Source: Stylophora pistillata
Taxonomy: Eukaryota
Direction: 5' to 3'
Assembly: GCF_002571385.2 (NCBI RefSeq)
Contig: NW_019217952.1
Coordinates: forward strand, 137,938-201,937
DNA: 64,000 nt
Of the stretch, positions 32-64,000 are shown one piece after another. The position numbers and the translations under genes were made by a program. Numbering within the stretch: position 1 is the stretch's first letter; the number at the start of each line of letters is the position of its first letter. The notes under the pieces were generated by a model, which worked only from the letters and a program-made list of their open reading frames with translations, had not been told where the DNA came from and made no database searches.

Positions 32-3000
32 TTGATAAACACACCGAACAAACAAATCCAATATCAACGAGTCGTCTGTGGCAGAAACAAGCGGCTCTGT
101 AGTCAATGTGCATCGATGAAGGAAGGATTAACTGATTACGGACTGTTGGCTCTGGAAGGAACACCCACTGAAATGAAATAAGCATGCATGTATATTAAGA
201 ATAGAGCATTTGGATTTAACATGATATTTCAAGAGAGACACTCTGAGTTGTTAGTAAAGTTTTTACAATTTACCAGAGCAATAATCTCTCCACCGACTGA
301 AAATGTGCCAATGTCATTAGTGCCATTATAATTAGATTAAATCAAAACCTCACCAGGAGGTATTGAAGCAATGCAAGAGTCTGTGGCACTTTAAGGTACA
401 TTCCACCGGTAATGTCAGCAGCCTACAAAAACAAAATAACCATTTCTGAAAATTCATATTAAGTAACAGTAATATTATTAGCTCAAAAAACACATCTATT
501 AATTCATTGTCAGTGCTGCACTGCACACCTGCTGCAAGAATCCTGAGTGTTCATCCACCACACAAGCATCAATCATTGTATTCTGGAAAAATCAATAAAT
601 GATTTCAAACAAACTGAAATTAAGGTTGAAAATATGCACTCTCATTCTTAGCAGTCCCACTTGGATATTTTAAAAAATCTCAAAACAGATCATTTTAGTC
701 AAACATCCCAGGTTTTGATCAATGGATTCGAAGTATGTTGATGATTCTACGATCTCTAAAATAATACCTAAGACACAAGCAAGCAACATCCAAACCGCTG
801 TGGATGCCTTTGCTTCGTGTGCTGCATTGGACAAGTTCCAGCTAAACGAGACAAAGTGTAAGGAAATGAGGATTTGTTTGAGTACAAAGGAGACTCTTGA
901 TCTCGATCCTATTGTTATTAATGACAAGCAAATTTATATTGTTTCTCATGCTAAGATCCTTGGTGTAAATGTTTCGAGCGACTTAAAATGGAACCATCAT
1001 ATTGCTGAAGTTGTTAAGAAGGCTAGCAAACGCCTGTTTTGTCTCTCTCAGTTAAACGGCTCAGATCTAGGTTCTGATGAATTAGTACAGTTCTATCATA
1101 GCAGCATTCACCCTATTACTGAACATGCCTGCCCAGTCTTTCATGACAGTCTGCCTGTGTATCTTTCTTGTCAGTTAGAGGCAGTGCAAAAGAGGGCCAT
1201 GCATATTATTTTTCCACGTTTTCCTTACGACGAAGCACTAGTTAATGCAGGACTTGTATCTCTGTCAGGCAGAAGACAAGCCCTGAGGGACAAACTTTTT
1301 AAGAACATTTTGGAAAACAAAGACAGTAAGCTTAAGAATTTACTTCCCCCACAAAATACCAAGTGTTATAACCTCAGGAAGTCACACATGAGAAACAATC
1401 ACTTCACAAGCTTTACTTTTACTAGTTTATCAGGTTTGACGGCTAGGAATAGATTAACTGATTACAAGTACTTTTAAGTTTAGAGGAAACTGAATGTTTT
1501 ATTGTATTATAGTTTCTTATTTAGTTTGAAATGTGTCTCAGTATAATCATAAGTTGGCTAGATACTATTTTGTTAAGTACACGCCCCACAAGCTTTTTAG
1601 CTTTAATTCTTATCGTGTATAAATAAAGAATCTACTACTACTACTACTACATGTTCAATGCGGTTTTCAAGACTGTGAGATTTCGCAAAAGTTTCATGAT
1701 TGTTTCAAATTTCTGATCCCATATTTTAATAGTTTGCACTTGTAGATATAGTTTTAATCCCTTTAATTATGTAGGGATTTATATATATATATATATAAAT
1801 GTGAGGGTAGAGCCTACCTTGGCATAAAGTGCTCAATGCTGCATTAGCAGAGCTGGGTATACATTTATTTTAGTCGTTTTTTTTTACCATGTAAATATGA
1901 TGTAATTCAACTTTTGGGTTGCAAAGTTATANNNNNNNNNNNNNNNNNNNNNNNNNNNNNNNNNNNNNNNNNNNNNNNNNNNNNNNNNNNNNNNNNNNNN
2001 NNNNNNNNNNNNNNNNNNNNNNNNNNNNNNNNNNNNNNNNNNNNNNNNNNNNNNNNNNNNNNNNNNNNNNNNNNNNNNNNNNNNNNNTTTCTACTTACAC
2101 TTTTTTGAGCAGCAAATATGCAGTTCATTATCGGCATATACTGTGTAGAGACATCTGGTGCAGCTTTGAGAACCTAGAGGTCATGAAAGATTAGAGCACT
2201 TGACTGTCAACCTTTCACTTGAATTGCACAACCTGATTGATAATTTGTCTTTGTAGCTGCTATGCCTTTCCTGGTAAATTATTTTGGGGCCACATCAAGA
2301 CAACAATCAATAGCAATCTATCCCCATTGCCCTAGCAGATTGAAGTACATTTTTCTCACTTCTGGGAGTGCTGTAACAGTGTAAATGTTAATGAAAACTT
2401 GAGTACTGAAAAATGTAAATATGTTTGGTACAGTATAGGTACAAACAGCATCTAACAATAAGTATTTTCACTTACGTGTAGAGCTTATTCATTTTTTTTA
2501 AACTTTGGTAATCTCTTTATTGTGCTTACCAAAATGCGAGACTTGATCTTCTGTCCAACTAATTGAAGCATAAGATTTTTAGAAAAAAGTAATTAGTACC
2601 AATTAACTAAACACACTAAAACTAACAATTTTGCTTGCAATGGGTAATCACAGACTTAAGTTTGAGAAGTGGGTGTCTAAAATATAGTTTAAGAAGTAGC
2701 AGCTATGATGTTTCCAAGCAAGTGTATTTATTTGGATAAGGATTGGGTGGAAGTTTGCATCAAGGATAAAGGGTAACAGTTCATGGAGCACTACAAGTAG
2801 CTCCCAACTGTGCACAGGTACAATGGATAGCTGAGAGACTTGGTGGCCTCATGGTTAGTGGTTAGTGCACTTGACCTCAGATCAAGTGGTCAGGGTTGGA
2901 GCCCTAGGACATTGTGTTGCGTTCTTAGACAAGACACTTTACTCTCACAGAGCCTCTCTTCACCCAGGGGTTTAAATACTGGGGGTAACCCTGCGATGGA

Positions 3001-15300: not shown

Positions 15301-18300
15301 CCATTATTTTTAAGTTGTTAGTATAAGGTTCTCTTCATTTAGATTGAGATTGTTTCAGTAATATTTATATGTATGATCTTTGTTTTCTTTAGATTCTTGA
15401 TGTTGTTCTAGAAGTTCTCTCCAAGCTGTCAGAGGAGTGCAAAGGAAATGTAAAATCAAGAGTTGAGGGACTCGAGCATGTGATGAAGGCCACCCTTGTG
15501 GGACAGACTCTCCCTGTCCTGGCATCAGTCGTGTCCTCTGAGAGATGTCTCACACTGTCCATGGCTAAGATCTTTGTACAAAGTGTGACCAACTTAACAG
15601 TGACTGCAGCAAGGGTCAGAAAATGAATTATAACATAAGCAAAGTAAAGCGCGCGCTCTGATTGGTCAATTTAGCGTCCCCCATTTGCCCATGGGTGTAC
15701 GCTGCTGACGTGAGCAAATGCAAAGACTATTTTTCCGCGCGCGCTTGTTTTTTCTGGTCGCGTAAGATTTGTTAAATAAAAGGGAACTCTTTAGCTACAA
15801 TGTATCAATGTTATGTTATAAAACAAATGGTAAACACCACAGCGTACACTATTGAGTTATGGATGCACTTGGGAGGTTTGCTAAGCACTCAAGAAGCTAG
15901 AGTCGCTCTCGGCTATCGCCTCGAGCGACTCTTACGCTTCTTTCGTGCTTAGCAACCTCCCGCGTGCATCCATAACTCAATAGTGTACGCTGTGGTGTTT
16001 ACCATTTGTTTTATAACATAACATTGATACATTGTAGCTAAAGAGTTCCCTTTTATTTAACAAATCTTACGCGACCAGAAAAAACAAGCGCGCGCGGAAA
16101 AATAGTCTTTGCATTTGCTCACGTCAGCAGCGTACACCCATGGGCAAATGGGGGACGCTAAATTGACCAATCAGAGCGCGCGCTTTACTTTGGTTATGTT
16201 ATAATTTTTTCTTCTATTAAAAGATCTATTTCTTTAGAGCTTATTAAAAAAAAAAAAAAAGTTGATAATAAAACTAATTCAATAGAAACAAGCATAATAA
16301 TAAAATGTCCTCTATTTAAAATTATACCCCAACTCCCCAATAAAAATAAAATAATAATAATAACTAAGTATTTATAATACATTTTAAATAATTTAAATAT
16401 TGAACGTATTCATTTAAACCAACTCCCTTTATCACAATTGGCATAAAAGAATGATTTGCCCCACAAATTTCAGAACATTGTCCAAAAAAAACCCCGGCTC
16501 GTTTTATAAAAACACCAGTTTGATTTAGACGACCCGGAACCGCATCAATTTTTAACCCCAAAGAAGGCACTGCAAAAGAATGTAAAACATCTGCCCCAGT
16601 AACTAAAAATCTTATATGTGTTTGAATAGGAATTAAAAGTTTATAATCAACTTCTAACAAACGATTCTCTCCAGAAACTAAATCCGAAGTAGGAATCATA
16701 TAAGAATCAAACCCTAACGTATCCCCTTCATAATCAGAATATTCATAGGATCAATATCATTGATGCCCAATAACTTTAATTGTCAAAGCTGGAGAAATAA
16801 CCTCATCCATTAAATATAATAATTTAAGAGAGGGCAATGCAATAAAAATCAATATAACAGCAGGAATAATCGTTCAAACAATTTCTAAAAATGTACCATC
16901 GATTAAATGACGATCATAAAACTTATTTTTAAAAGATTCAACAAAAAGTCATAAAACAACAGTAACTATAATAATTAATAAAAACATAACTTGGTCATGA
17001 AAAAAAACAATTTCTTCTACAATAGGATCCCCAACATCTTGAAACTCTAAAAGTCAAGTCTCTGGACTGTCCGAATAATAAAGATGATTAAACCAGAGAA
17101 CAGACAACCAAGCCAAAACATTTATAAAATATCTAAAAAAAGTAAAAACAAAAAGATTTTGCATTAAAGAAGTTTTTATGAGCCTCATCAATAAATACAT
17201 AAATATAAAAATAATCAAACCACATCGACAAAGTGCCAGTATCAACTCGCGGCCTCAAACCCAACATGTTGACGACGAGTAAATTGATTAGAGAGTAAAC
17301 GTAAAAAACAAATAAAAAGAAAAGTAGTACCAATTATAACATGTAGTCCATGAAACCCTGTCGCAACAAAAAAAGTGGCCCCATAAACAGAGTCAGATAA
17401 AGTAAAAGGCGCCTCATAATATTCAAATGCTTGCAACCCCGTAAACATAACACCCAAAAAAAGAGTTAAAAATAAAGCAAGTTGAGCCTCTTTTTTTAAA
17501 CCACAGAGTATTGCATGGTGCGCCCATGTAACCGTTGCCCCAGAACTTAATAATACAGCAGTGTTTAATAAAGGAACAGAAAAGGGATTTAATGCAACAA
17601 TTCCTTGTGGAGGCCAAACAACTCCAAGTTCAACAACCGGTGCTAAACTACTATGAAAAAAAGCCCAAAAAAAAGAAAAAAAAAACAAAATTTCTGAAAG
17701 AATAAATAAAATCATACCATATTTAATCCCTTGTTTTACAATTAAAGAATGGTGACCTTGAAAAGTTGATTCTCGTATAACATCTTGTCATCAAACAAAC
17801 ATAACTCCAACAACAACCAAAAGCCCCAAATATAAAAAAAAACTAAACCCATAATGAAAAAAAACCACTGCACCAACAGTAATAAAAAAAGAGCCAATTG
17901 CTCCAACAAAAGGCCATGGAGAAGGCTCAACTAAATGATACGAATGAAACTGCATCAAGAGCCAGTTCCCTCACTCTTACTATGTTACGACTTACAGCCT
18001 ATTTCTGGGCTGGCGACGGGCTATTTGTACTAACATTGTTTTCACGTTCATTGAAACGCACTACTTTTCAATTACTATTAAATCCAACTTCATTATCTTA
18101 TTTTAAAAACAATCCGAACCCCTCCTTTTCTAAGAGAAAAATGTAGCGCGCCTAACCCCGAAATATAAGGGTCATAATACCTGACTTCAACCTTGATAGG
18201 ATTAAACCCCTTTTTGTCTCAAACAGAAATTGACGACGGCCATGCAACACCTGTTAATAAATTCAAACTTCGGTAAGGTCTCTCGCGGATTATCGAATTA

Positions 18301-54371: not shown

Positions 54372-55636
54372 GGGCCCTTAAATGATACTAATCAAAATAA
54401 GATCCCTTGGCAGAGCCTCTGAGTCCAGTCCATACCTAAAGGGCCGACAAAATCCAAGAAAAGGGCCTTTGAACGATCAATTAGTAGCGCCTAATATAAG
54501 ATGGAAAATTAATTATAGCAAATTCTATTTTTCGAATGAAATTCCTTTCTTTTATTCGAACCATGGGGTGCCAAAGAGAACAACTGAGCACTCCAATAAG
54601 CCTCTTTTGTGATTAAAAGCCCATCGATCTCTACAGAGCCACTAGGGGCCTGTACCTGATCAATGCATTGGAACGAAAAATCGTCCAGGATGTGTGGGGT
54701 TTTGTTAAAGTGTATTGCTACTTCACAACTTGTTTTGTTTGTGAGCATAGCAGATTTGTGATTTCGAAATCTCACTTTAAAGTCGGTTGTAGTAGATCCC
54801 AAGTATTGCAGGAGACATTTCTTGCAGGAAGCCAAGTAAATCACATTTTTAGAGTCACAGGAAAGTCTAAAAGTCTTGCAAACTTCTAGCTGTTCCAGCT
54901 TTAATGTGGCGACGTCCTTTTATTTACGATAAATGAATCAGCATACAAACACATTTGTAGATAATCTTTATCAACGAAGTAAAAAATGAGAAACAAACGA
55001 ACACTAAAAAAATAAAATCATGAATGTAAAATCATAAACTATAACCTCCCTGACCAGGATTTGAACCCTGGCGTTGGCCGCTTTCGTTGTGTCTGTATAT
55101 AATACATCAACCACCGACTGCAGAGACCAACTCCAGAAACATGTGAAAGTAGGAGTGATTTACCTTAGATATGAGGTTTTAATGTTAACCACACAATTTG
55201 TATCCCATTGTGTCGAAATGCATTTCCTCGGTTGAAGGATGTACAAAAAAGTAAACTTGCGATTAACTGGGTAAATAAGTCTGTTCATTTACGAAAAAAA
55301 AAGCATACAGAACACTATTTATCAACGGGTTATGAAATGGGAAAACAAACGAACACACAAAATAGAATTAAAAATAAAATATCACAGACAAGTTCCCCGT
55401 AAACCCTGACTGGGTCCACTTTAGCGATACAATTCTCTACATATTGTCTTGCACGCGAATTTCACCAAATTTTCATCATTTATCCAACAAGTTGCTTGAG
55501 TACTGGGATCGACAAAAGCGGAATCAATGTCCACCCCCGTCCCCCCCAGGCCCTGGACGAGTAAGGAGATTCAGGATTTCCGCAGACCTCAGTTAGTTGG
55601 ATAGAAGTTTATGACTTATTGTGGCGTTTTTGCAAG

Positions 55637-55856
55637 AATAGTCCCTTTTACAGTTGTAGGCTTGGTGGCCAAGCCTTTGAACAGGAGTGAGGCTAAGGGT
55701 GACCCTGTTGTGATAGAGACCTGTATCTAGTTAGCATGATAACAAGGTAATTTGCATTTGAAAAGCAGCAACATATTTATCATAACAAGGTCACCCTAAG
55801 CCTCATTCCTGTTCAAAGGCTTGGCCACCAAGCCCACAACTTTAAAAAGGACTATT
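55637..55856. mobile_element. Foldback MITE with about 70-bp imperfect inverted arms
   Basis: AATAGTCC...GGCTTGGTGGCCAAGCCTTTGAACAGGA...GGGTGACC versus GGTCACCC...TCCTGTTCAAAGGCTTGGCCACCAAGCC...GGACTATT. Confidence 0.8.
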
Positions 55857-56244
55857 GGCCATTTTCTTTCAAGTTTGGAGAAAAGCTTAACATGCCTTCA
55901 ATTTGATAACTATAAATTTTTCGATTTTGAGGGAAAAACAAAAAAAAAAACTGGAAAAAATTGTAAAACAATATTCGAATATATAAAAAATAAGAGAAAA
56001 CAAAACAAAACAAAACAACAACACAACCGCAAAAAATTTGACTAGTTTCCCGCGCTTGGGTTTGGACTTTATTGGGGCGTCACGATGCTTCTCCAGTGAG
56101 CGGCGGGGGATATCGACTTTACGTCAATCAAGGAAAGTTGCCTGTTCATTGCCAGAACTTACTCCCGCATCATAAATATATCAGCCCATAGGACGAACAA
56201 AGCAATTTTACCAGATATCTAGGTAGAAAACTATCAATTTTTCA

Positions 56245-56464
56245 AATGAATAAAGGCTGATAGTTTCGAAAGAAAGTGTTTGGGGCTGCGTCGGTGGGAG
56301 TAACGAAATAATTTGGATATATCAACAAAGTTGAAATGGTAAATTGGCCACCGTAACGATTACAAAAGCTGACGTTTCGAAGGGCTAACGCTCGAAACAT
56401 CAGCTTTTGTAATCGTTACGGTGGCCAATTTACCATTTCGACTTTGTTGATATATCCAAATTAT
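56245..56464. mobile_element. Inverted pLTR-like (Penelope/retrozyme-type) fragment forming a 157-bp palindrome centred on a hammerhead remnant
   Basis: Arms 56308-56380 and 56392-56464; centre CGAAGGGCTAACGCTCGAAACATCAG; flanking 13-bp direct repeat TATCAATTTTTCA at 56232 and 56462. Confidence 0.7.
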
Positions 56465-56878
56465 CAATTTTTCAGTTAACTTTACAGGAGCAGCAGGCAT
56501 ATGGCATCTATGGCTTTCAAGTACATGTACATCATTCGTTTCCGACCGGTGTTAATTAGTTAGATATAAGTCTGTTGACTCAAATATGAACCAGGCATTT
56601 TCTTTATTCAACTTAAAAAGCTACTAATCCTTTTTTTTTCTTTTTTCTTTTCTTTTTCTTTTTTTTTTCACGCAGACGCGGATATCTTCTTGGTCCTATT
56701 TGTGCCTGCCTAACCACGCCGCCAGGGTCTGGGACCCACTGGTAATGTGATATGGAACGGATTAACCTCTGCACTTCCTCTAGAACATATGCTTTTTGTC
56801 GGCGCACTCGAAAATAGAATCTGAAGAGACACGCTTTTTATCAGATCATATAACTGTGAAGAAGAATTTTTCGCAATC

Positions 56879-59800
56879 ATGAACTTCCAACTGTTGACGA
56901 TCCTAGTGATTGCTGCCCTTTTCTCTCAAGCCAGAGGATATTGCGGTAAGAAATGTGTGGGGCTATTCCTTATACGAATCATTTAAGCAGAACATTTAAA
57001 TTATACAAGCTATGTTACAGGAATGCTAAATTAACCCAGCATATTTCATCACATCTGACGTGCGCAGTTTTCAAGGCAGCGACTTTTTCTACCTTTCCTT
57101 CGCTCTTTAAGCCTTACAGCTAAACATCTTACGCTCTGCACATTTGACGACGCGATACGCAGAGCTAAAGAATAAAGAAAGATCTCGGTATTACTTGCGT
57201 ACATGGTTTTTAACTTTCGCACAGTAACAATGCTTTCAAATCGGCTGATGTTGTTCACGCGAACGACTTAAGAAGCATGTCTTCGACTCTGTTTTCCTGG
57301 GTATTGATCGCTGGGATACAATTTTTACAGGAACGTGATAACTAAAAGATCAATCTCGGGCTTATAACGTTACCTTCCTCACGTCTATTAATTTACAGCA
57401 AATCAATTTACAAGTCTTATACATTTCACCGTTTACCGAGTAACTTCTGATTCACCCTGATGCAGATGAAAGACCACATATGAAACAATGAAACCCAACT
57501 ACTCGTATATGTGCAAAATAAATTTTGTTGCCAAATCTCATTATCACTTGCGTCATATTGGTAAACTTAAGTTATTTTCCATCTCTGCGTGTGGCAGTAA
57601 CCTTTGTTCTGTCATTCTGCTTAAAAAAAAGGAGGAAAAAACATTTGAAAGCGAAAATGAAACATGGATTTTAAATTGAGAGAAAAATATAAATTTAAAA
57701 AAGGGAGAACAGACCAGACTCCGAACTGACTATACTAGGTGCGAAGTTGGGCTGTTGGACTCATTATACAAATTTGCCCATCGTTTTAGCAATATGATTA
57801 ACATGCTTTTTATGTAAGTGTTAAATGAGTTAAGTCACAGCTTTCGCATCTGGAAGATTCAAGAACCACAACTCAGCACATTGTTAGGTGTCCCCTTAGG
57901 ATTTCCTTACCTTGCTAGCTTGAGGTAGACTCCTTCAGGGCTGTTTTTTTTTTTTTTTTTTTTTTTTTTTTCTTTTTTCATTTCATCAATTTCACAGTTT
58001 ATTTTTGAGTGATAATAGGCCTTAGTCCTCAATGCCTGTCTGAAGTTTCAAAAGCGAAAGCTGTAGCTCATTGTCCACAATTGACGCGTTTCAGGTGCCA
58101 GACTTCTGCGAACAAGCATCACGCGCGCAGCCATCAGAGCTGCCGAATGGTTAAAGAATCAACAAAACAAAAATGGAAGTTACGGGTTGGGTCACGTGAG
58201 TGCGTTTGCATTCAACTCTCTACGTCTTACTGGTCACTCTGTGAGCACTGGTGCTAAGCATCTGAATGCGGAGCTCACTAAAGCTGACATCGGTTCACTG
58301 ACCGGGGGAAGGGTAGCACTTTATATACTTGGAGCCTTGGCCACGTGCAAAGACCCCAGCCGCTTTTATGATGTTAATTTGGTTAGAAGCCTGAGAGACA
58401 AACTAAACAAGTTCCCTCAGTTGGGATTTAATCACTCTTTTCAATACAGCCTGGCTGTAATGGCTCTCTGTAGCAGCAACACAACTCTGAACAGGCAAAT
58501 GCTTGGCTATGTGGATGAAATCCGTAAGAAGGTGGTAATTGAATCGAGCGTTGCCAGTTACCATGTATCCGAGACGCTTGCAATGCAAATAATGGCGTTG
58601 ACCTGTGTTAAGAATTCCATAAAAGGACTGAACAAGAAGATACTTGAAAAGAAAATCCATAGAGCTGTTCATTTGGGAGGTAGAAAATTTCTCAAGGCTC
58701 AAATCAACGACAGCACGTTTGGGGGAAACGAAGTCACAGCAGCTCTTGCTTCTCAGGTACGTTACCAATTCTCTGTCACGGAAATTTTCTTTATCTTTGT
58801 CACGCAATCCATCTTGTGTGATTTTAAAGGGGAATGTCAAGAAAATTTTAAGAATTTTGAGCGTCTTAAGGAATTGCTTACTAAAAAATTATTATTACAG
58901 GTTTTAAAAACGCAAATTAAATTGGAAAATATCAATGAAAAAACCGACTTGAGAGGGCAACCCTAAATCGTAAAGAAGGAATTTCGCTACAGCTTACATG
59001 TACAGCAATGACGTTACACATACAACAAAACCGATAAGTCTCCTCTCAATTTTCTGCTGATTTCAAATCTGATTCTCCTTTCTGATTACCATACATATCA
59101 TCATTGGTTTGTCGTAGGAATTTAGCGTTTTATATAAATAACATCATATGCCAAATAATTTCCTTCCATTTGACCTATCAAGCTTGTAACGTATCGAATC
59201 TGTAGAGTGATTTTCTGCACTGATCACATTTCTGCATGTCCAGGCTCTTTTAGCAGCCAAAGGGAAGACAAAAAAGTGTTCTGAGACTTTACGCTGGCTG
59301 GTGTCTCGTCAAAAACCTGATGGATCCTTCATTAACTTGCTCAGCACACTATATGTCACACCGGCCTTGATCGGAGCACTACCCTACGATGTCAAAGACA
59401 TAGTGTGTCTTAAAACTACAGGTAATTGAAAACAGTGTTTTACAGGAAAAGTTGTGACCACTTTCCTACACTAGCTAACGACTTTAACCGAATCCGCTGC
59501 ATGTGCAGGCGCGTTGGCCTATTGTCCACCTGTGCTTGTCCCTTCTCTGACGCAAGAGCTGGTCTGCTGTGAGAGTAACAAAACTTTACCGGAGTTCTTT
59601 TCTTTAATTTGAATGGGTTTGTTGTGTGAATTCCTCAAGTTTCAGTTTCTAACGCGATTGAATTTTCCCTTTCAGATGAAAGAGAACAACAGGTGAGATT
59701 AGCAAGAAACAATTCATTTGATTTTTACTAGTTTGAGAGGCATAGAAAGTCATGAGAGGAGGTGGGCGGGGGCTATCTTCGTTATGCCCCCCACCATACC

Positions 59801-60299
59801 CCTCCCCCCCTTCATCGTGACACGGCGACAGCTCCGGACTGAATTTTAATTGAGACTTATCGCGACTTATTCGCTCGAAATTATGATTAAACATTTGTAG
59901 AACAGTAAAAAAAAAAAAAAAAAAAAAAAAACCATCTTTTTCCTTTTATTGCCTTAGAATATAACCGTCTGCGTTGAGCTCAGGTTCGTCGACACTAACA
60001 AAGACACCGAAGGAAAAACTCCTCCACCCACCAAGTGCGTGACAGTAGCAAATGGCACTAATGCTCACAACATCCTGAAAGAAGCCGCTAAAAAACATCC
60101 ATGTTATGCATTCACCACCCAAACCTCCACATACGGCCATTCGGTGACATCCATCTGTGGCGTCCAACGCAGACCTGTCGATAAATTCTATTGGATGATC
60201 TACATAGACGAAGAAACAGCCCCTGTGGGAGTGGATGAACTGAAGCCTGCTCATGGATCCACTCTCAGTTTTCGGTATAAACAACTGCACTGGCGGTAG
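56879..60299 (+). CDS. Secreted cobalamin-binding protein, transcobalamin/intrinsic factor/haptocorrin family (about 421 aa). Exons: 56879-56945, 58095-58756, 59244-59421, 59676-59692, 59958-60299
   Basis: Signal peptide MNFQLLTILVIAALFSQARG. Alpha domain: LTGGRVALYILGALATCKDP, FQYSLAVMALC, VSETLAMQIMALTC, TFGGNEVTAALASQALLA, QKPDGSFIN. Beta domain: FTTQTSTYGHSVTSICGV...FYWMIY...GVDELKPAHGSTLSFRY. Exons total 1266 nt in frame; AATAAA at about 60376. Confidence 0.85.
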
Positions 60300-61129
60300 T
60301 CAAGTTAAGCTGTGTGGACGCCCTGATGTGTTTCAAGTTCTTCCGAAATATAGAGTTCTTTCATCGGCAGAAGATAATAAACATTTAGATATATTTTGAT
60401 CTGATTTTTTTTTTTTTAAGGTGGGTGCTGGTTTTAAATAGGGTTGTTAAACAACAAATCTTTAGTTGCCACCTTAATTCTTGGATGAGTGGTAACTCTG
60501 AACCTATCCTAGGGAGCTAAAGGTACACGAAGCTAAAATAAAAGATATTTTAAAGAGTTTGTAGAATGAAGGTCTGACGTTCGTCTTAAACTTTAAATGC
60601 ATTAACAATTTTGCGAAAATTTTCTTATGTCTTTATTTCCTTGAAAACAGCATAGTTTAAGTTAGAAGCTTTTGATGAACTGTTCTTAACACTAAACAAA
60701 CCACACAAACAAAGAAATAACCAAGCAAAGAGATTAATTCGAGAAATAACCCGCGCAATTTATTTTTATTTGTTATTTACACCTAATATCTTAACGAATT
60801 TTAGTATCGATCAAAACTTAGAGAAATGAACACTTCTTATCGTGATTGTGAGTCCTCCTCAATGAAGTGTTTACTGTGCGAATTTTTGCCCTAACACGCT
60901 AGTATTACAGCAGGAAACATTTAAAGCGTCCCTTTCCTCTCTTGAATGCTGGTAAATTCAGTGGTTACTATTTCATGATCGTGTGACAGCAGATAGTGAC
61001 CAAAAGCTGTTGCGCGACGAACTGTGAAGAAGTCGGCGACTTGCTTCACAAAACTTTCTTGCAACCATATGTGCGCAGTTACCTCAGAGTGGTGAAGTTA
61101 ACAATCCACTTGATGCGATGAAACTTATT

Positions 61130-63572
61130 CTATTCAAATGCTGTTCTCCTCCTCGGAACAAACTACGGATGCAAATTGCCGTTGTCAAATTAAAGATAAG
61201 GCTTGAGGTGACTCTGTTTAAACTCGCAAGGTAACCCGATAAAAGACAGGGCAGAATGCCATCCAAGGTTGTAAAAATATTCCTATCGCCTCATGCCAGA
61301 GAAAACGGGGTAAATTTCGGCACAAATGAGCCTCTTTTTTTTTTTTTTTTCAGACAATGCCAACACACTATCCTTCAAACAGACGATAATAACAGCCCAC
61401 TACGTTTCTCGATTCTTGCCACCCATTTGTTGGATAATGCACATATATGTATGAATAAAAAAAATTACACGAAGCAAGCAAACTTTGAGTAAAGAAACAG
61501 TTCAAAATGTAGATGTTGCACTAACCCTTGCATGAGGTCCTCTCGCTTTCATATGATCTGCTTCATGTCTCAACATCCTATCATATCCCTCTTTCTCTCG
61601 CCTTCAACAAAATGTGTAATTTACACGCACATTGAGTCTATGTGTAAAACCAGTAAACTACTTAAACTACCTTACCAAAAACGTTTGAAAGTCGCTGAAA
61701 GGCATAAGGCAACTGCCATTTCAACTACAAGCAGCTTCCATGAGTTTCATGGAAACAGAGTTTCACCATCACTCAAAGTCATAAATATTTTATTGATGAT
61801 AAAAGCATTGTTACCTTTCCCGTTCTAGCTCTTCTCTCTCAATTTGTTGCATTTCTTTGGCCTTTTCTCTGCGTGAAGTTATCTGTTCAAGTTCGATAGA
61901 TAAAAAAAGATAGTGTTGGAAGGGAAAAATCAGTAAGAGACGGGTTTCTACGGATGAAAGTAAAAGTTGAAGGGTAACGAGCGAAGTTGAATGAACGGGT
62001 TTTTTATTTTTTCAGATTCGAACCTGTGCTTGAATTTCTTCTTCTCGCTCCTTCCGTAATCTTGCCTCTTCACTCTTCTCCCTTGCTGTCATTCTCTGAA
62101 CTTCTTCTAATTCTCGCAACAGTTGTTCACGACTTTCGATTGACTCCTGTTGCCGGCGTTTATTTTCCTCCATTTTGTTATCCAGCTGTTTTCTCCGAAC
62201 GTCTAAGACCTAGCAGAGGACAAGACAAGCTGTTAAAAAAAATATAACTTTATGAAGAAATCTCAAAAAACAGATGTAAACAACAATGCGCTCTCCTTAC
62301 TTCAGCCATCAGTCTCTCTCGGGCCAGTCTTTCCCGTTCCCACTCTGCTTCTCTCTTGGTCCACATTCGAGCTGCTTCATCTCTATGTATCACAAATTTA
62401 CGACAAATAACCCTTACATCTTTGAGAGTGACTAGCATCTAATTTCCCCTTACAACATCACCCCTCAACCACATATTATGGTCACGTGAATAAAGAAAAT
62501 GATCACCAACTACAGATGCTCAGGATTGTTAAACAAATTCTCCTTGTCAGCACTTTAGACAATGTAGAGTAAACAGTATCAGGGCTTAAAATAACAGCCG
62601 GTTAACGGCCAAAGTCCGGTCAAATAAACGCATGGTCCGGTCATCTCTGAGAAAGGGTGGACATTGTGTCCGGTTCATCACGCATGAAAAGAAGAATTTA
62701 AACCCGATCTAAGTTGGAGTTTTAAATGCTTTAAAGGTTCAAAATTATTGGCACTCTTAGGAAAAAAGAGGGAAAAGATAGATACTAGACCAGACCAAGA
62801 ACTTTTGACAACTTTTTAATAACGGATCACAACGACTGTACAGTAAGAAGGTATTGCAAATTTTCACTTTATCATTCATCTATTTGTCGCGACATTCAGC
62901 GAGTTTTCCGGATACAAGTGTCTATAATCGGATACTTATGTCTGAATCGGACACTAGTGCCTAAAATCGGACACTAGTGTCTGAAATCTGTATTTGCGCC
63001 TGAAATCGGACACTAGCGTCTGAAATCTGTATTTGTGCCTGAAATCGGACACTAGTGCCTAAAATCGGACATTAGTGTCTGAAATCTGTATTTGTGCCTG
63101 AAATCGGACACTAGTGTCTAAAATTGGAAACTGGTGACCACAATCAGACGCAAGTGTGTAAACTTAGTTAAGATTTTTTCCAACGAGTTGATAGAAGGGT
63201 GGAAGTTTGCTGTATGAACCTCTATCATAAACCAAAGTTAAGCAAACGCATCGCAACCTAGCATTAGTCTCCAAACTTGGTCACAACTGCTATGAATGTT
63301 ATATTAAGGCTTGTCAATAGTTACAAACTACAGTTGCAATATTGTTACCATTACCTGTAGAGCATGTCTAACTCTGCTTCCCTTTGTTGTTCAAGTTTAA
63401 GTTGTTGTTCAACAACCTTCAAAAGAAACATAATAAGTATATGTATCTCAAACTTCTTCCCAGAGAAAAACATTTTGAAATAAATTTCAAAAACTGTTAC
63501 CTGTCTCATGTATTCTGCGTCAGCGCGGGCTTTCTCTCGTCTTGAAGTCTCGATTATTTTATCTTGATCTTC
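61130..63572 (-). CDS. TCHP: Trichoplein keratin filament-binding protein, 5'-partial. Exons: 63501-63572, 63355-63416, 62301-62382, 62024-62209, 61815-61882, 61526-61601, 61130-61162
   Basis: In-frame join gives the coiled coil [64 protein letters not shown]...QQESIESREQLLRELEE...RRRTAFE*, matching the trichoplein C-terminus. Confidence 0.88.
62905..63160. repeat. 19/20-bp minisatellite array inside a probable DNA-transposon remnant in a TCHP intron
   Basis: Alternating GTGTCTGAAATCTGTATTT / GTGCCTGAAATCGGACACTA units. The upstream CAGGGCTTAAAATAACAGCCGG start at 62580 truncates another repeat. Confidence 0.8.
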
Positions 63573-64000
63573 CTATTCATTAAAAGAATTGAGACAAAGA
63601 AAACCAGCTTTCCACTTGCAAGGTTAGTAAACGAGTCTAACCATTTAATTTCTGGTCAATCTGTATAAGACCATATTCATCCTTAGATCTGTCATACCAA
63701 GGATATAAGCTAGAATGACGATCTTCTTTGGAACTGTCTTATAACCTTTTAAGCCTACAATACAACAGTTGCGTGTTGTTTACAAATTTTCATAAATCTG
63801 ATCTCCACATGATTTCTGTTAACACTGGTTGAGAAAGTTTTTCCTCATAGATATAGATTTCTTTTAAGAAAAATCTCGTATTTCTCGTATTTGGTAAATT
63901 GGGAGGAGAAATTAAGTTCTCTTCATCGGGTTGTGGCTTAAATGGTATGATCCTTTTCAAGCAGAAACTTTTAAATGCCCATAATTGGATTTATTAGTAA

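What the first reader, a model, noticed from the sequence alone, without database searches (positions are those of the whole stretch)
56879..60299. Full-length two-domain transcobalamin/intrinsic-factor-like protein in a coral
Seen: signal peptide, alpha-barrel motifs with conserved cysteines, a linker and a complete beta domain, about 421 aa and quite basic. Established: this family is characterised mainly in vertebrates, B12 is made only by prokaryotes, and many dinoflagellates need it. Inference: a host B12 capture or delivery protein that could broker cobalamin between bacteria, coral and algal symbionts. This is the best candidate here for an undescribed functional system.
Basis: partly seen in the sequence, partly recalled or inferred. 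Interest (0 to 1): 0.7.

Follow-up and report, generated by a model that had tools for sequence, protein, structure and literature searches.

The report
Coral vitamin B12 carrier gene
This spliced, transcribed coral gene encodes a relative of the human vitamin B12 carrier proteins that likely binds B12 for the coral's own cells; its relatives in animals without algae make it an ordinary animal gene rather than a symbiosis invention.

Summary
Five exons (56879-60299, + strand, one of 17 nt) give 421 aa with a signal-like N-terminus, Cobalamin_bind and DUF4430 domains, pI 9.7. RNA shows all four introns spliced, and the model folds like intrinsic factor, haptocorrin and transcobalamin.

It is not undescribed as a gene: it is letter-identical to RefSeq XP_022792085.1, 'gastric intrinsic factor-like', Stylophora pistillata. 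It is the only alpha-domain locus found in the genome. Relatives occur in Nematostella and the jellyfish Sanderia (no algal symbionts, recalled), amphioxus, acorn worms, a brachiopod and a horseshoe crab. The host has its own B12 enzymes and amnionless.

Best reading: an ancestral secreted B12 carrier serving the coral itself (0.72). Binding was not measured. One near-invariant Asp is Glu here, and the model's domains are not closed. Nothing ties the gene to symbionts, though lysosomal delivery into the symbiosome is not excluded.

Side find: elsewhere in the genome lies a tandem cluster of signal + two-beta-domain genes ending in a GPI-like tail, a candidate surface B12 catcher. No paper on cnidarian members turned up.

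The parts
56879..56945 (+). Exon 1: ATG, signal-peptide-like stretch (about aa 1-20) and Cys22
   Evidence: intron 1 joint in RNA
58095..58756 (+). Exon 2: most of the alpha6/alpha6 barrel (aa 23-243), with C107, C148, C193, the NHSFQ motif (135-139), H179, E182, N234
   Evidence: PF01122; PDB hits to IF, TC, HC; model
59244..59421 (+). Exon 3: end of the alpha domain (aa 244-302), with C255 and C298
59676..59692 (+). Exon 4: 17-nt micro-exon encoding the interdomain linker (aa 303-308)
   Evidence: phase fit; its letters lie between the joined exons in RNA contigs of 2 of 4 runs
59958..60299 (+). Exon 5 coding part: beta-grasp (DUF4430) domain, aa 309-421, and stop; Y367, G368, Y386, W387, G399; four Cys (313, 335, 357, 375)
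   Evidence: PF14478; PDB hits; TM 0.87 (target-normalised), rmsd 1.9 A to TC beta domain 5no0
60300..60560 (+). 3' UTR with AATAAA at 60376 and 60537
   Evidence: RNA depth continues over it

Best explanation
The gene encodes a two-domain protein of the transcobalamin/intrinsic factor/haptocorrin family, predicted to be secreted, which likely binds vitamin B12 and likely carries it to the coral's own cells. Shown: gene structure, splicing, both domains, the fold, and a place outside the vertebrate three-way split (quick tree). Inferred from the vertebrate proteins: the two domains stay apart until cobalamin binds, then clamp it between them; the complex is taken up by receptor-mediated endocytosis (an amnionless gene is present; cubilin was not tested), degraded in lysosomes, and the vitamin supplies the host's methylmalonyl-CoA mutase and methionine synthase. 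Inferred site: the gastric cavity or mucus, where food and bacteria release B12. Predicted selectivity: intrinsic-factor-like, with poor cobinamide binding (one bulky beta-hairpin residue, Y367; no TNYYQ motif).
For: Both Pfam domains over cut-off. AlphaFold mean pLDDT 91.8; the 11 top VIA rows are IF, HC and TC, Z 23.1-27.5 over about 360 residues; Foldseek E 7.5e-15 to 1.1e-13 for the first 13 ranks. Family columns kept among 67 aligned rows: W387 66/67, G368 62/67, G399 59/67, N234 56/67, Y/F386 64/67, Q139 39/67; C107, C148, C193, C298 in 62-66/67. Six alpha-domain Cys match three of the four disulfides listed for rat TC (PMC11107200; five mapped, C22 by position). Transcribed: 18 of 24 listed runs hold exon 2, 12 of them on record as RNA, 7 studies. 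The host genome has multi-exon MUT, MetH and amnionless. Two-domain relatives in Nematostella and Sanderia, amphioxus, Ptychodera, Saccoglossus and Lingula, and an alpha-domain relative in Tachypleus.
Against: No binding was measured. The column that is Asp in 63 of 67 rows is Glu182 here (Glu in 3 of 67), fixed in all 12 further cluster members that cover it. R95 and Y280 stand where human TC has Gln (roles recalled). Only F and Q of the TNYYQ motif remain. The model's domains are not in the closed arrangement (rmsd about 16 A to holo structures), so the assembled pocket is untested; terpene cyclase barrels score Z up to 22.9 on the alpha domain alone. The genome also has a B12-independent MetE-type domain, which may lower the host's need. 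Cell type and receptor are unknown.
Confidence: 0.72

Rival explanations
1. The ancestral carrier has been co-opted to supply symbionts: carrier-B12 is endocytosed by gastrodermal cells, lysosomes fuse with the symbiosome, and the algae receive the vitamin.
For: Symbiodinium sp. CCMA128 is a B12 auxotroph in culture, and sequenced symbiont genomes have only a truncated metE (PMC11197592, passages). The Aiptasia symbiosome is a phagolysosome that fuses with lysosomes (bioRxiv 10.1101/2025.10.09.679812, passages). Mammalian TC-Cbl is degraded in lysosomes (PMC6257451, passage).
Against: The gene is present in cnidarians without algae (their lifestyle is recalled). One alpha-domain locus in this genome. 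The symbiosome proteome's main text has 0 hits for vitamin, cobalamin, B12, LMBR or cubilin; a S. pistillata single-cell bleaching preprint has 0 hits for vitamin, cobalamin, B12, intrinsic or cubilin. Their supplements were not seen. One Symbiodiniaceae species (Effrenium voratum) is listed as not requiring B12.
Confidence: 0.12
2. It is mainly a haptocorrin-like scavenger in mucus or gastric fluid that withholds corrinoids from microbes or mops up analogues.
For: Soluble, six sequons, strongly basic; 9 of 12 coral rows have pI above 8, as do the Nematostella and Sanderia-cluster proteins, against 4.3-5.3 for amphioxus and acorn worms, which could suit retention on acidic mucus (inference). 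The best profile hit in the PDB is haptocorrin (E 7e-26). PMC4350170 proposes a broad-specificity ancestor.
Against: The haptocorrin signatures named in PMC4350170 are absent: S365/Y367/S370 against R357/W359/Y362, and NHSFQ against TNYYQ. Two coral rows have pI 6.2-6.6, one of them partial. Amnionless suggests an uptake route exists.
Confidence: 0.1
3. The fold is kept but the ligand has changed or been lost in this lineage.
For: Glu182, R95 and Y280 differ from the vertebrate residues; four beta-domain Cys are common in corals but rare elsewhere in the alignment (10-17 of 67).
Against: Beta-domain residues W387, Y386, G368 and G399 are the same in 12 of 12 coral rows; the other 11 coral rows keep Asp. 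Human IF itself lacks the Gln of the alpha motif. Most beta-hairpin contacts are by backbone atoms (PMC1796856, passage).
Confidence: 0.06

Closest known systems
Human gastric intrinsic factor (CBLIF; PDB 2PMV, 3KQ4)
   Same: Two-domain fold (Z 27.5, 21% identity); one bulky aromatic at the haptocorrin-359 position and none at 362; amnionless present in the host.
   Different: Not an ortholog of IF alone: the coral protein lies outside the clade holding IF-like and TC-like rows. Cubilin binding untested.
Transcobalamin (TCN2; PDB 2BB5, 2BB6, 4ZRP, 8IXU)
   Same: Fold; Cys pattern of three disulfides; a His (H179) just before the conserved acidic residue, where TC has the His of its cobalt-binding loop.
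   Different: About 20-23% identity; the His is in that column in only 3 of 12 coral rows; Asp is Glu; no Cys pair for the fourth disulfide; CD320 not tested.
Haptocorrin (TCN1; PDB 4KKI)
   Same: Best profile hit (E 7e-26); several glycosylation sequons.
   Different: Lacks TNYYQ and the R357/W359/Y362 set linked to cobinamide binding.
Invertebrate pre-duplication Cbl binders (amphioxus, acorn worm; insect CG3556-like)
   Same: Same architecture, predating the vertebrate duplications (PMC4350170, PMC1796856).
   Different: Cnidarian members are mostly basic and often carry extra beta-domain cysteines; I found no assay of any.

Membership tests
Eukaryotic cobalamin-binding (TC/IF/HC) family | N-terminal alpha6/alpha6 barrel matching PF01122 | tested here: met
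   90.4 bits vs cut-off 25; helical barrel in the model
Eukaryotic cobalamin-binding (TC/IF/HC) family | C-terminal beta-grasp domain with beta-hairpin insert (PF14478) | tested here: met
   31.9 bits vs cut-off 23.8; rmsd 1.9 A to 5no0
Eukaryotic cobalamin-binding (TC/IF/HC) family | Secreted: signal peptide, no membrane anchor | tested here: met
   Hydrophobic N-terminus, hydrophilic C-terminus by hydropathy only
Eukaryotic cobalamin-binding (TC/IF/HC) family | Cys set for three conserved alpha-domain disulfides | tested here: met
   C22, C107, C148, C193, C255, C298 (PMC11107200); bond distances not measured
Eukaryotic cobalamin-binding (TC/IF/HC) family | Ligand-contact residues conserved | tested here: inconclusive
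   Q139, N234, Y367, G368, Y386, W387, G399 kept; Asp to Glu182, Gln to R95 and Y280 changed. The TC contact list is recalled; the model is open.
Eukaryotic cobalamin-binding (TC/IF/HC) family | High-affinity cobalamin binding with domain closure | not testable with these tools
   Needs recombinant protein
Intrinsic factor proper | Descends from the gnathostome Tcn1/Gif lineage | tested here: not met
   Coral rows group with Nematostella (SH-aLRT 98), apart from the 12-row clade (100) holding an IF-like and a TC-like row; quick tree, midpoint root
Intrinsic factor proper | Uptake by cubilin-amnionless | tested here: inconclusive
   Amnionless exons found; cubilin and binding not tested
Transcobalamin proper | His of the alpha7/alpha8 loop coordinates cobalt | tested here: inconclusive
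   H179 lies at a matching place but is poorly conserved in corals
Haptocorrin proper | TNYYQ motif and R357/W359/Y362 set | tested here: not met
   NHSFQ and S365/Y367/S370 (motifs from PMC4350170)
Symbiosis-specific host gene | Restricted to, or expanded in, alga-bearing hosts | tested here: not met
   Present in Nematostella, Sanderia and bilaterians; one alpha-domain locus here
Symbiosis-specific host gene | Expressed in alga-hosting cells or located at the symbiosome | not tested
   Single-cell and proteome supplementary tables were not seen

The most novel reading that the evidence does not exclude
Corals run a two-part B12 system unlike the vertebrate one: this soluble carrier plus GPI-anchored tandem beta-domain proteins (G000:C194, about 60-78 kb) that catch B12 at the cell surface. 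Both feed the lysosomal route that fuses with the symbiosome, so the host meters an essential vitamin to its B12-auxotrophic algae.
Probability: 0.1. Interest if true: 0.75.

Novelty: new member of a known kind. Interest (0 to 1): 0.25.

Why it matters
If the best reading holds, it shows that the animal B12 carrier predates the cnidarian-bilaterian split, and it gives a named, expressed, single-locus gene for testing how corals take up B12. That is useful but expected. It would matter more if knockout starved the symbionts, since host control of an essential algal vitamin would be a new lever in symbiosis and bleaching. The tandem beta-domain genes with a GPI-like tail are the less ordinary lead.

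Tried and rejected
Undescribed gene: rejected, it is annotated in RefSeq, GenBank and UniRef. Mis-spliced model or pseudogene: rejected by RNA joints; a second possible acceptor for the micro-exon at 59646 does not fit the letters seen in RNA. Paralog family in this genome: PF01122 gave 1 match among 2 candidates; the P0001 search gave 4 matches at this locus and 2 beta-only matches on C194; these are lower bounds. Terpene cyclase or prenyltransferase: same barrel fold (Z up to 22.9) but no beta domain and Pfam scores below cut-off. Basic charge as a fixed trait: pI spans 6.15-9.66 in 12 coral rows. The careful tree did not finish; the quick tree is reported. 7 of its 14 'coral' rows are unnamed and were labelled by similarity. 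Literature: transcobalamin+coral+cobalamin gave 5 papers and transcobalamin+cnidaria 1, none about a cnidarian carrier by their listings; searches listed none either, and the accession had 0 occurrences in the 10 rows shown of 2,181. Earlier scan findings: none by sequence or by words. The ESM Atlas gave only a 0.75 hit for P0301, a lead at most. No complex prediction was run, since cobalamin is not an offered ligand. The full structural contact lists (Wuerges 2006, 2007; Furger 2013; Mathews 2007) were not seen.

Full report
Observation. The window holds a five-exon gene on the + strand from 56879 to 60299: exons 56879-56945, 58095-58756, 59244-59421, 59676-59692 and 59958-60299, all with GT..AG introns and matching phases, giving 421 aa. 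The protein has a hydrophobic N-terminus, computed pI 9.66, ten cysteines and six sequons. Four RNA runs were laid: the intron 1 joint appears in 2 of 4, the intron 2 joint in 4 of 4, and the exon 3 to exon 5 joint in 4 of 4, with the micro-exon letters printed for 2 of 4. In the two raw-read runs depth is low (about 2-24 in 2% of each run) and mostly from one strand. Of 24 listed runs, 18 hold exon 2, 12 of them on record as RNA, from 7 studies; these runs were chosen for holding the gene, so they show presence, not level.

Identity. The translation equals P0001, recorded as XP_022792085.1 'gastric intrinsic factor-like [Stylophora pistillata]' and in UniRef. Pfam gives Cobalamin_bind and DUF4430 over their cut-offs. 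A profile of 9 close relatives hits only haptocorrin, intrinsic factor and transcobalamin in the PDB (8 of 8 sequences, E 7e-26 to 3e-14). The AlphaFold model (67 rows, pLDDT 91.8) matches the same three proteins best (Z 23.1-27.5 for the first 11 rows; Foldseek). The rmsd to holo structures is about 16 A because the domains are not closed. That fits the report that the domains assemble only with ligand (PMC5599065, passages), but it leaves the pocket geometry untested.

Binding site. In the 67-row alignment the query keeps W387 (66/67), G368 (62/67), G399 (59/67), N234 (56/67), Y386 (Y or F 64/67), Q139 (39/67) and four near-invariant cysteines. Against this, a column that is Asp in 63 of 67 rows is Glu182, the same in all 12 further cluster members that cover it, and R95 and Y280 replace glutamines of human TC. 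That these are ligand contacts in TC is recalled, not read. By the motifs in PMC4350170 (parts 1-3 of 4 read) the protein lacks the haptocorrin set (NHSFQ for TNYYQ; S365/Y367/S370 for R357/W359/Y362) and has the single bulky residue typical of intrinsic factor, so I predict weak cobinamide binding. H179 lies where TC has its cobalt-binding loop His (PMC11107200, section 4 and passages), but in only 3 of 12 coral rows.

Distribution. The profile finds 799 representatives at E<=0.001, of which 150 were listed; I looked up names for 20 of them. Named ones include Nematostella vectensis, Sanderia malayensis, Acropora cervicornis, Branchiostoma, Ptychodera, Saccoglossus, Lingula and Tachypleus; Pocillopora, Porites, Oculina (two copies) and Orbicella came. 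That Nematostella and Sanderia have no algal symbionts is recalled. In a quick 70-row tree the 14 coral-like rows (7 named) form one side of a branch (SH-aLRT 99) next to Nematostella (98), with Sanderia in the next group (100). A separate 12-row group (100) holds a TC-like and an IF-like row. So the gene is a pre-duplication relative of all three vertebrate carriers, and the 'intrinsic factor' label is only a best hit. Invertebrate members are already in print (PMC4350170; PMC1796856, passages).

Host context. The genome gave one PF01122 match. It carries multi-exon methylmalonyl-CoA mutase, B12-dependent methionine synthase and amnionless, so the coral has its own use for B12 and part of an uptake receptor. 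It also has a MetE-type domain, which may lessen that need. Neighbours in the window look unrelated: a large HECT ligase gene upstream and a convergent coiled-coil gene downstream.

Mechanism. Most likely (0.72) the protein is secreted, clamps B12 released from food or bacteria, and is endocytosed and degraded so that the vitamin reaches host enzymes. Gene, transcript, domains and fold are shown; secretion is predicted; binding, receptor and tissue are inferred. Co-option for the algae (0.12) has a route: a Symbiodinium strain is a B12 auxotroph (PMC11197592, passages; PMC10915500, passages), and the symbiosome fuses with lysosomes (10.1101/2025.10.09.679812, passages). But no call links this gene to symbiont-bearing cells, and neither that text nor a S. 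pistillata single-cell preprint (10.64898/2026.07.18.739195, term search) mentions B12. Their supplements were not seen and could change this. A mucus scavenger role (0.10) and a changed ligand (0.06) are the other rivals. PMC3331988 and PMC6257451 were seen as passages only; other papers as search listings only.

Side finding. The searches for paralogs found beta-domain-only genes on G000:C194: two genes with two beta domains each and a third with at least one. One is P0301, 'uncharacterized LOC111332411'. It has a hydrophobic N-terminus, two beta-grasp domains (model pLDDT 80.3; best folds are TC beta domains) and a short hydrophobic tail after an SSG-type motif. One search found 13 relatives, among them three in Oculina and one in Desmophyllum (no algae, recalled). 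I profiled 11 of the 13: 10 have the hydrophobic tail, and the Desmophyllum model, which looks like two fused genes, does not end in one. A GPI anchor is my inference from that pattern; no predictor was run and transcription was not tested by reads. Beta-only B12 binders are known (PMC11107200; teleost forms in PMC4350170); I saw no tandem anchored animal form in the papers read.

Verdict. A real, expressed, already annotated member of a known family, most likely doing the family's usual job for the host. Interest 0.25. The symbiont-provisioning reading is testable but unsupported.

Noticed in passing
G000:C194:60500-77750, - strand (L013, L014): Tandem cluster of transcobalamin beta-domain-only genes; two have two DUF4430-type domains and a GPI-like hydrophobic tail (P0301 = LOC111332411). 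Relatives in Oculina (three copies) and Desmophyllum. Candidate cell-surface B12 catchers.
   Followed up: partly
Proteins P0109, P0174, P0211, P0130: Other proteins with 2-5 tandem beta domains; P0109, P0174 and P0211 (unnamed) end in a hydrophobic tail, P0130 (Actinia tenebrosa) does not.
   Followed up: partly
window 16367-17976, - strand: Mitochondrial COX3 and COX2 sequence, open under genetic code 4, inside the span of the large HECT gene: a recent nuclear insert or an assembly chimera.
   Followed up: partly
window about 6300-43500, + strand: Large multi-exon gene ending in a HECT domain (PF00632); HECTD4-like by recall.
   Followed up: no
window about 61300-63600, - strand: Glu/Arg-rich coiled-coil exons of a convergent gene; opposite-strand RNA reads at 60843-61000. 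No Pfam hit on the two exons tested; resembles CFAP45/trichoplein proteins by recall.
   Followed up: no
window 56240-56465 and 55640-55850: Two palindromic, MITE-like elements upstream of the gene; the first draws very deep repeat-derived RNA coverage.
   Followed up: no
G000:C69:571272-583367: Three matches to the B12-independent methionine synthase C-terminal domain (PF01717) in the coral genome.
   Followed up: no
window 60239-60251: Linked allele E402D/K404T/A406G near the end of the beta domain, seen in RNA reads and in 6 of the 12 further cluster members that cover it.
   Followed up: no
window 719-1474 and 54512-54919: Decayed mobile-element remnants (weak ALKBH8_N and GIY-YIG hits below cut-off).
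   Followed up: no
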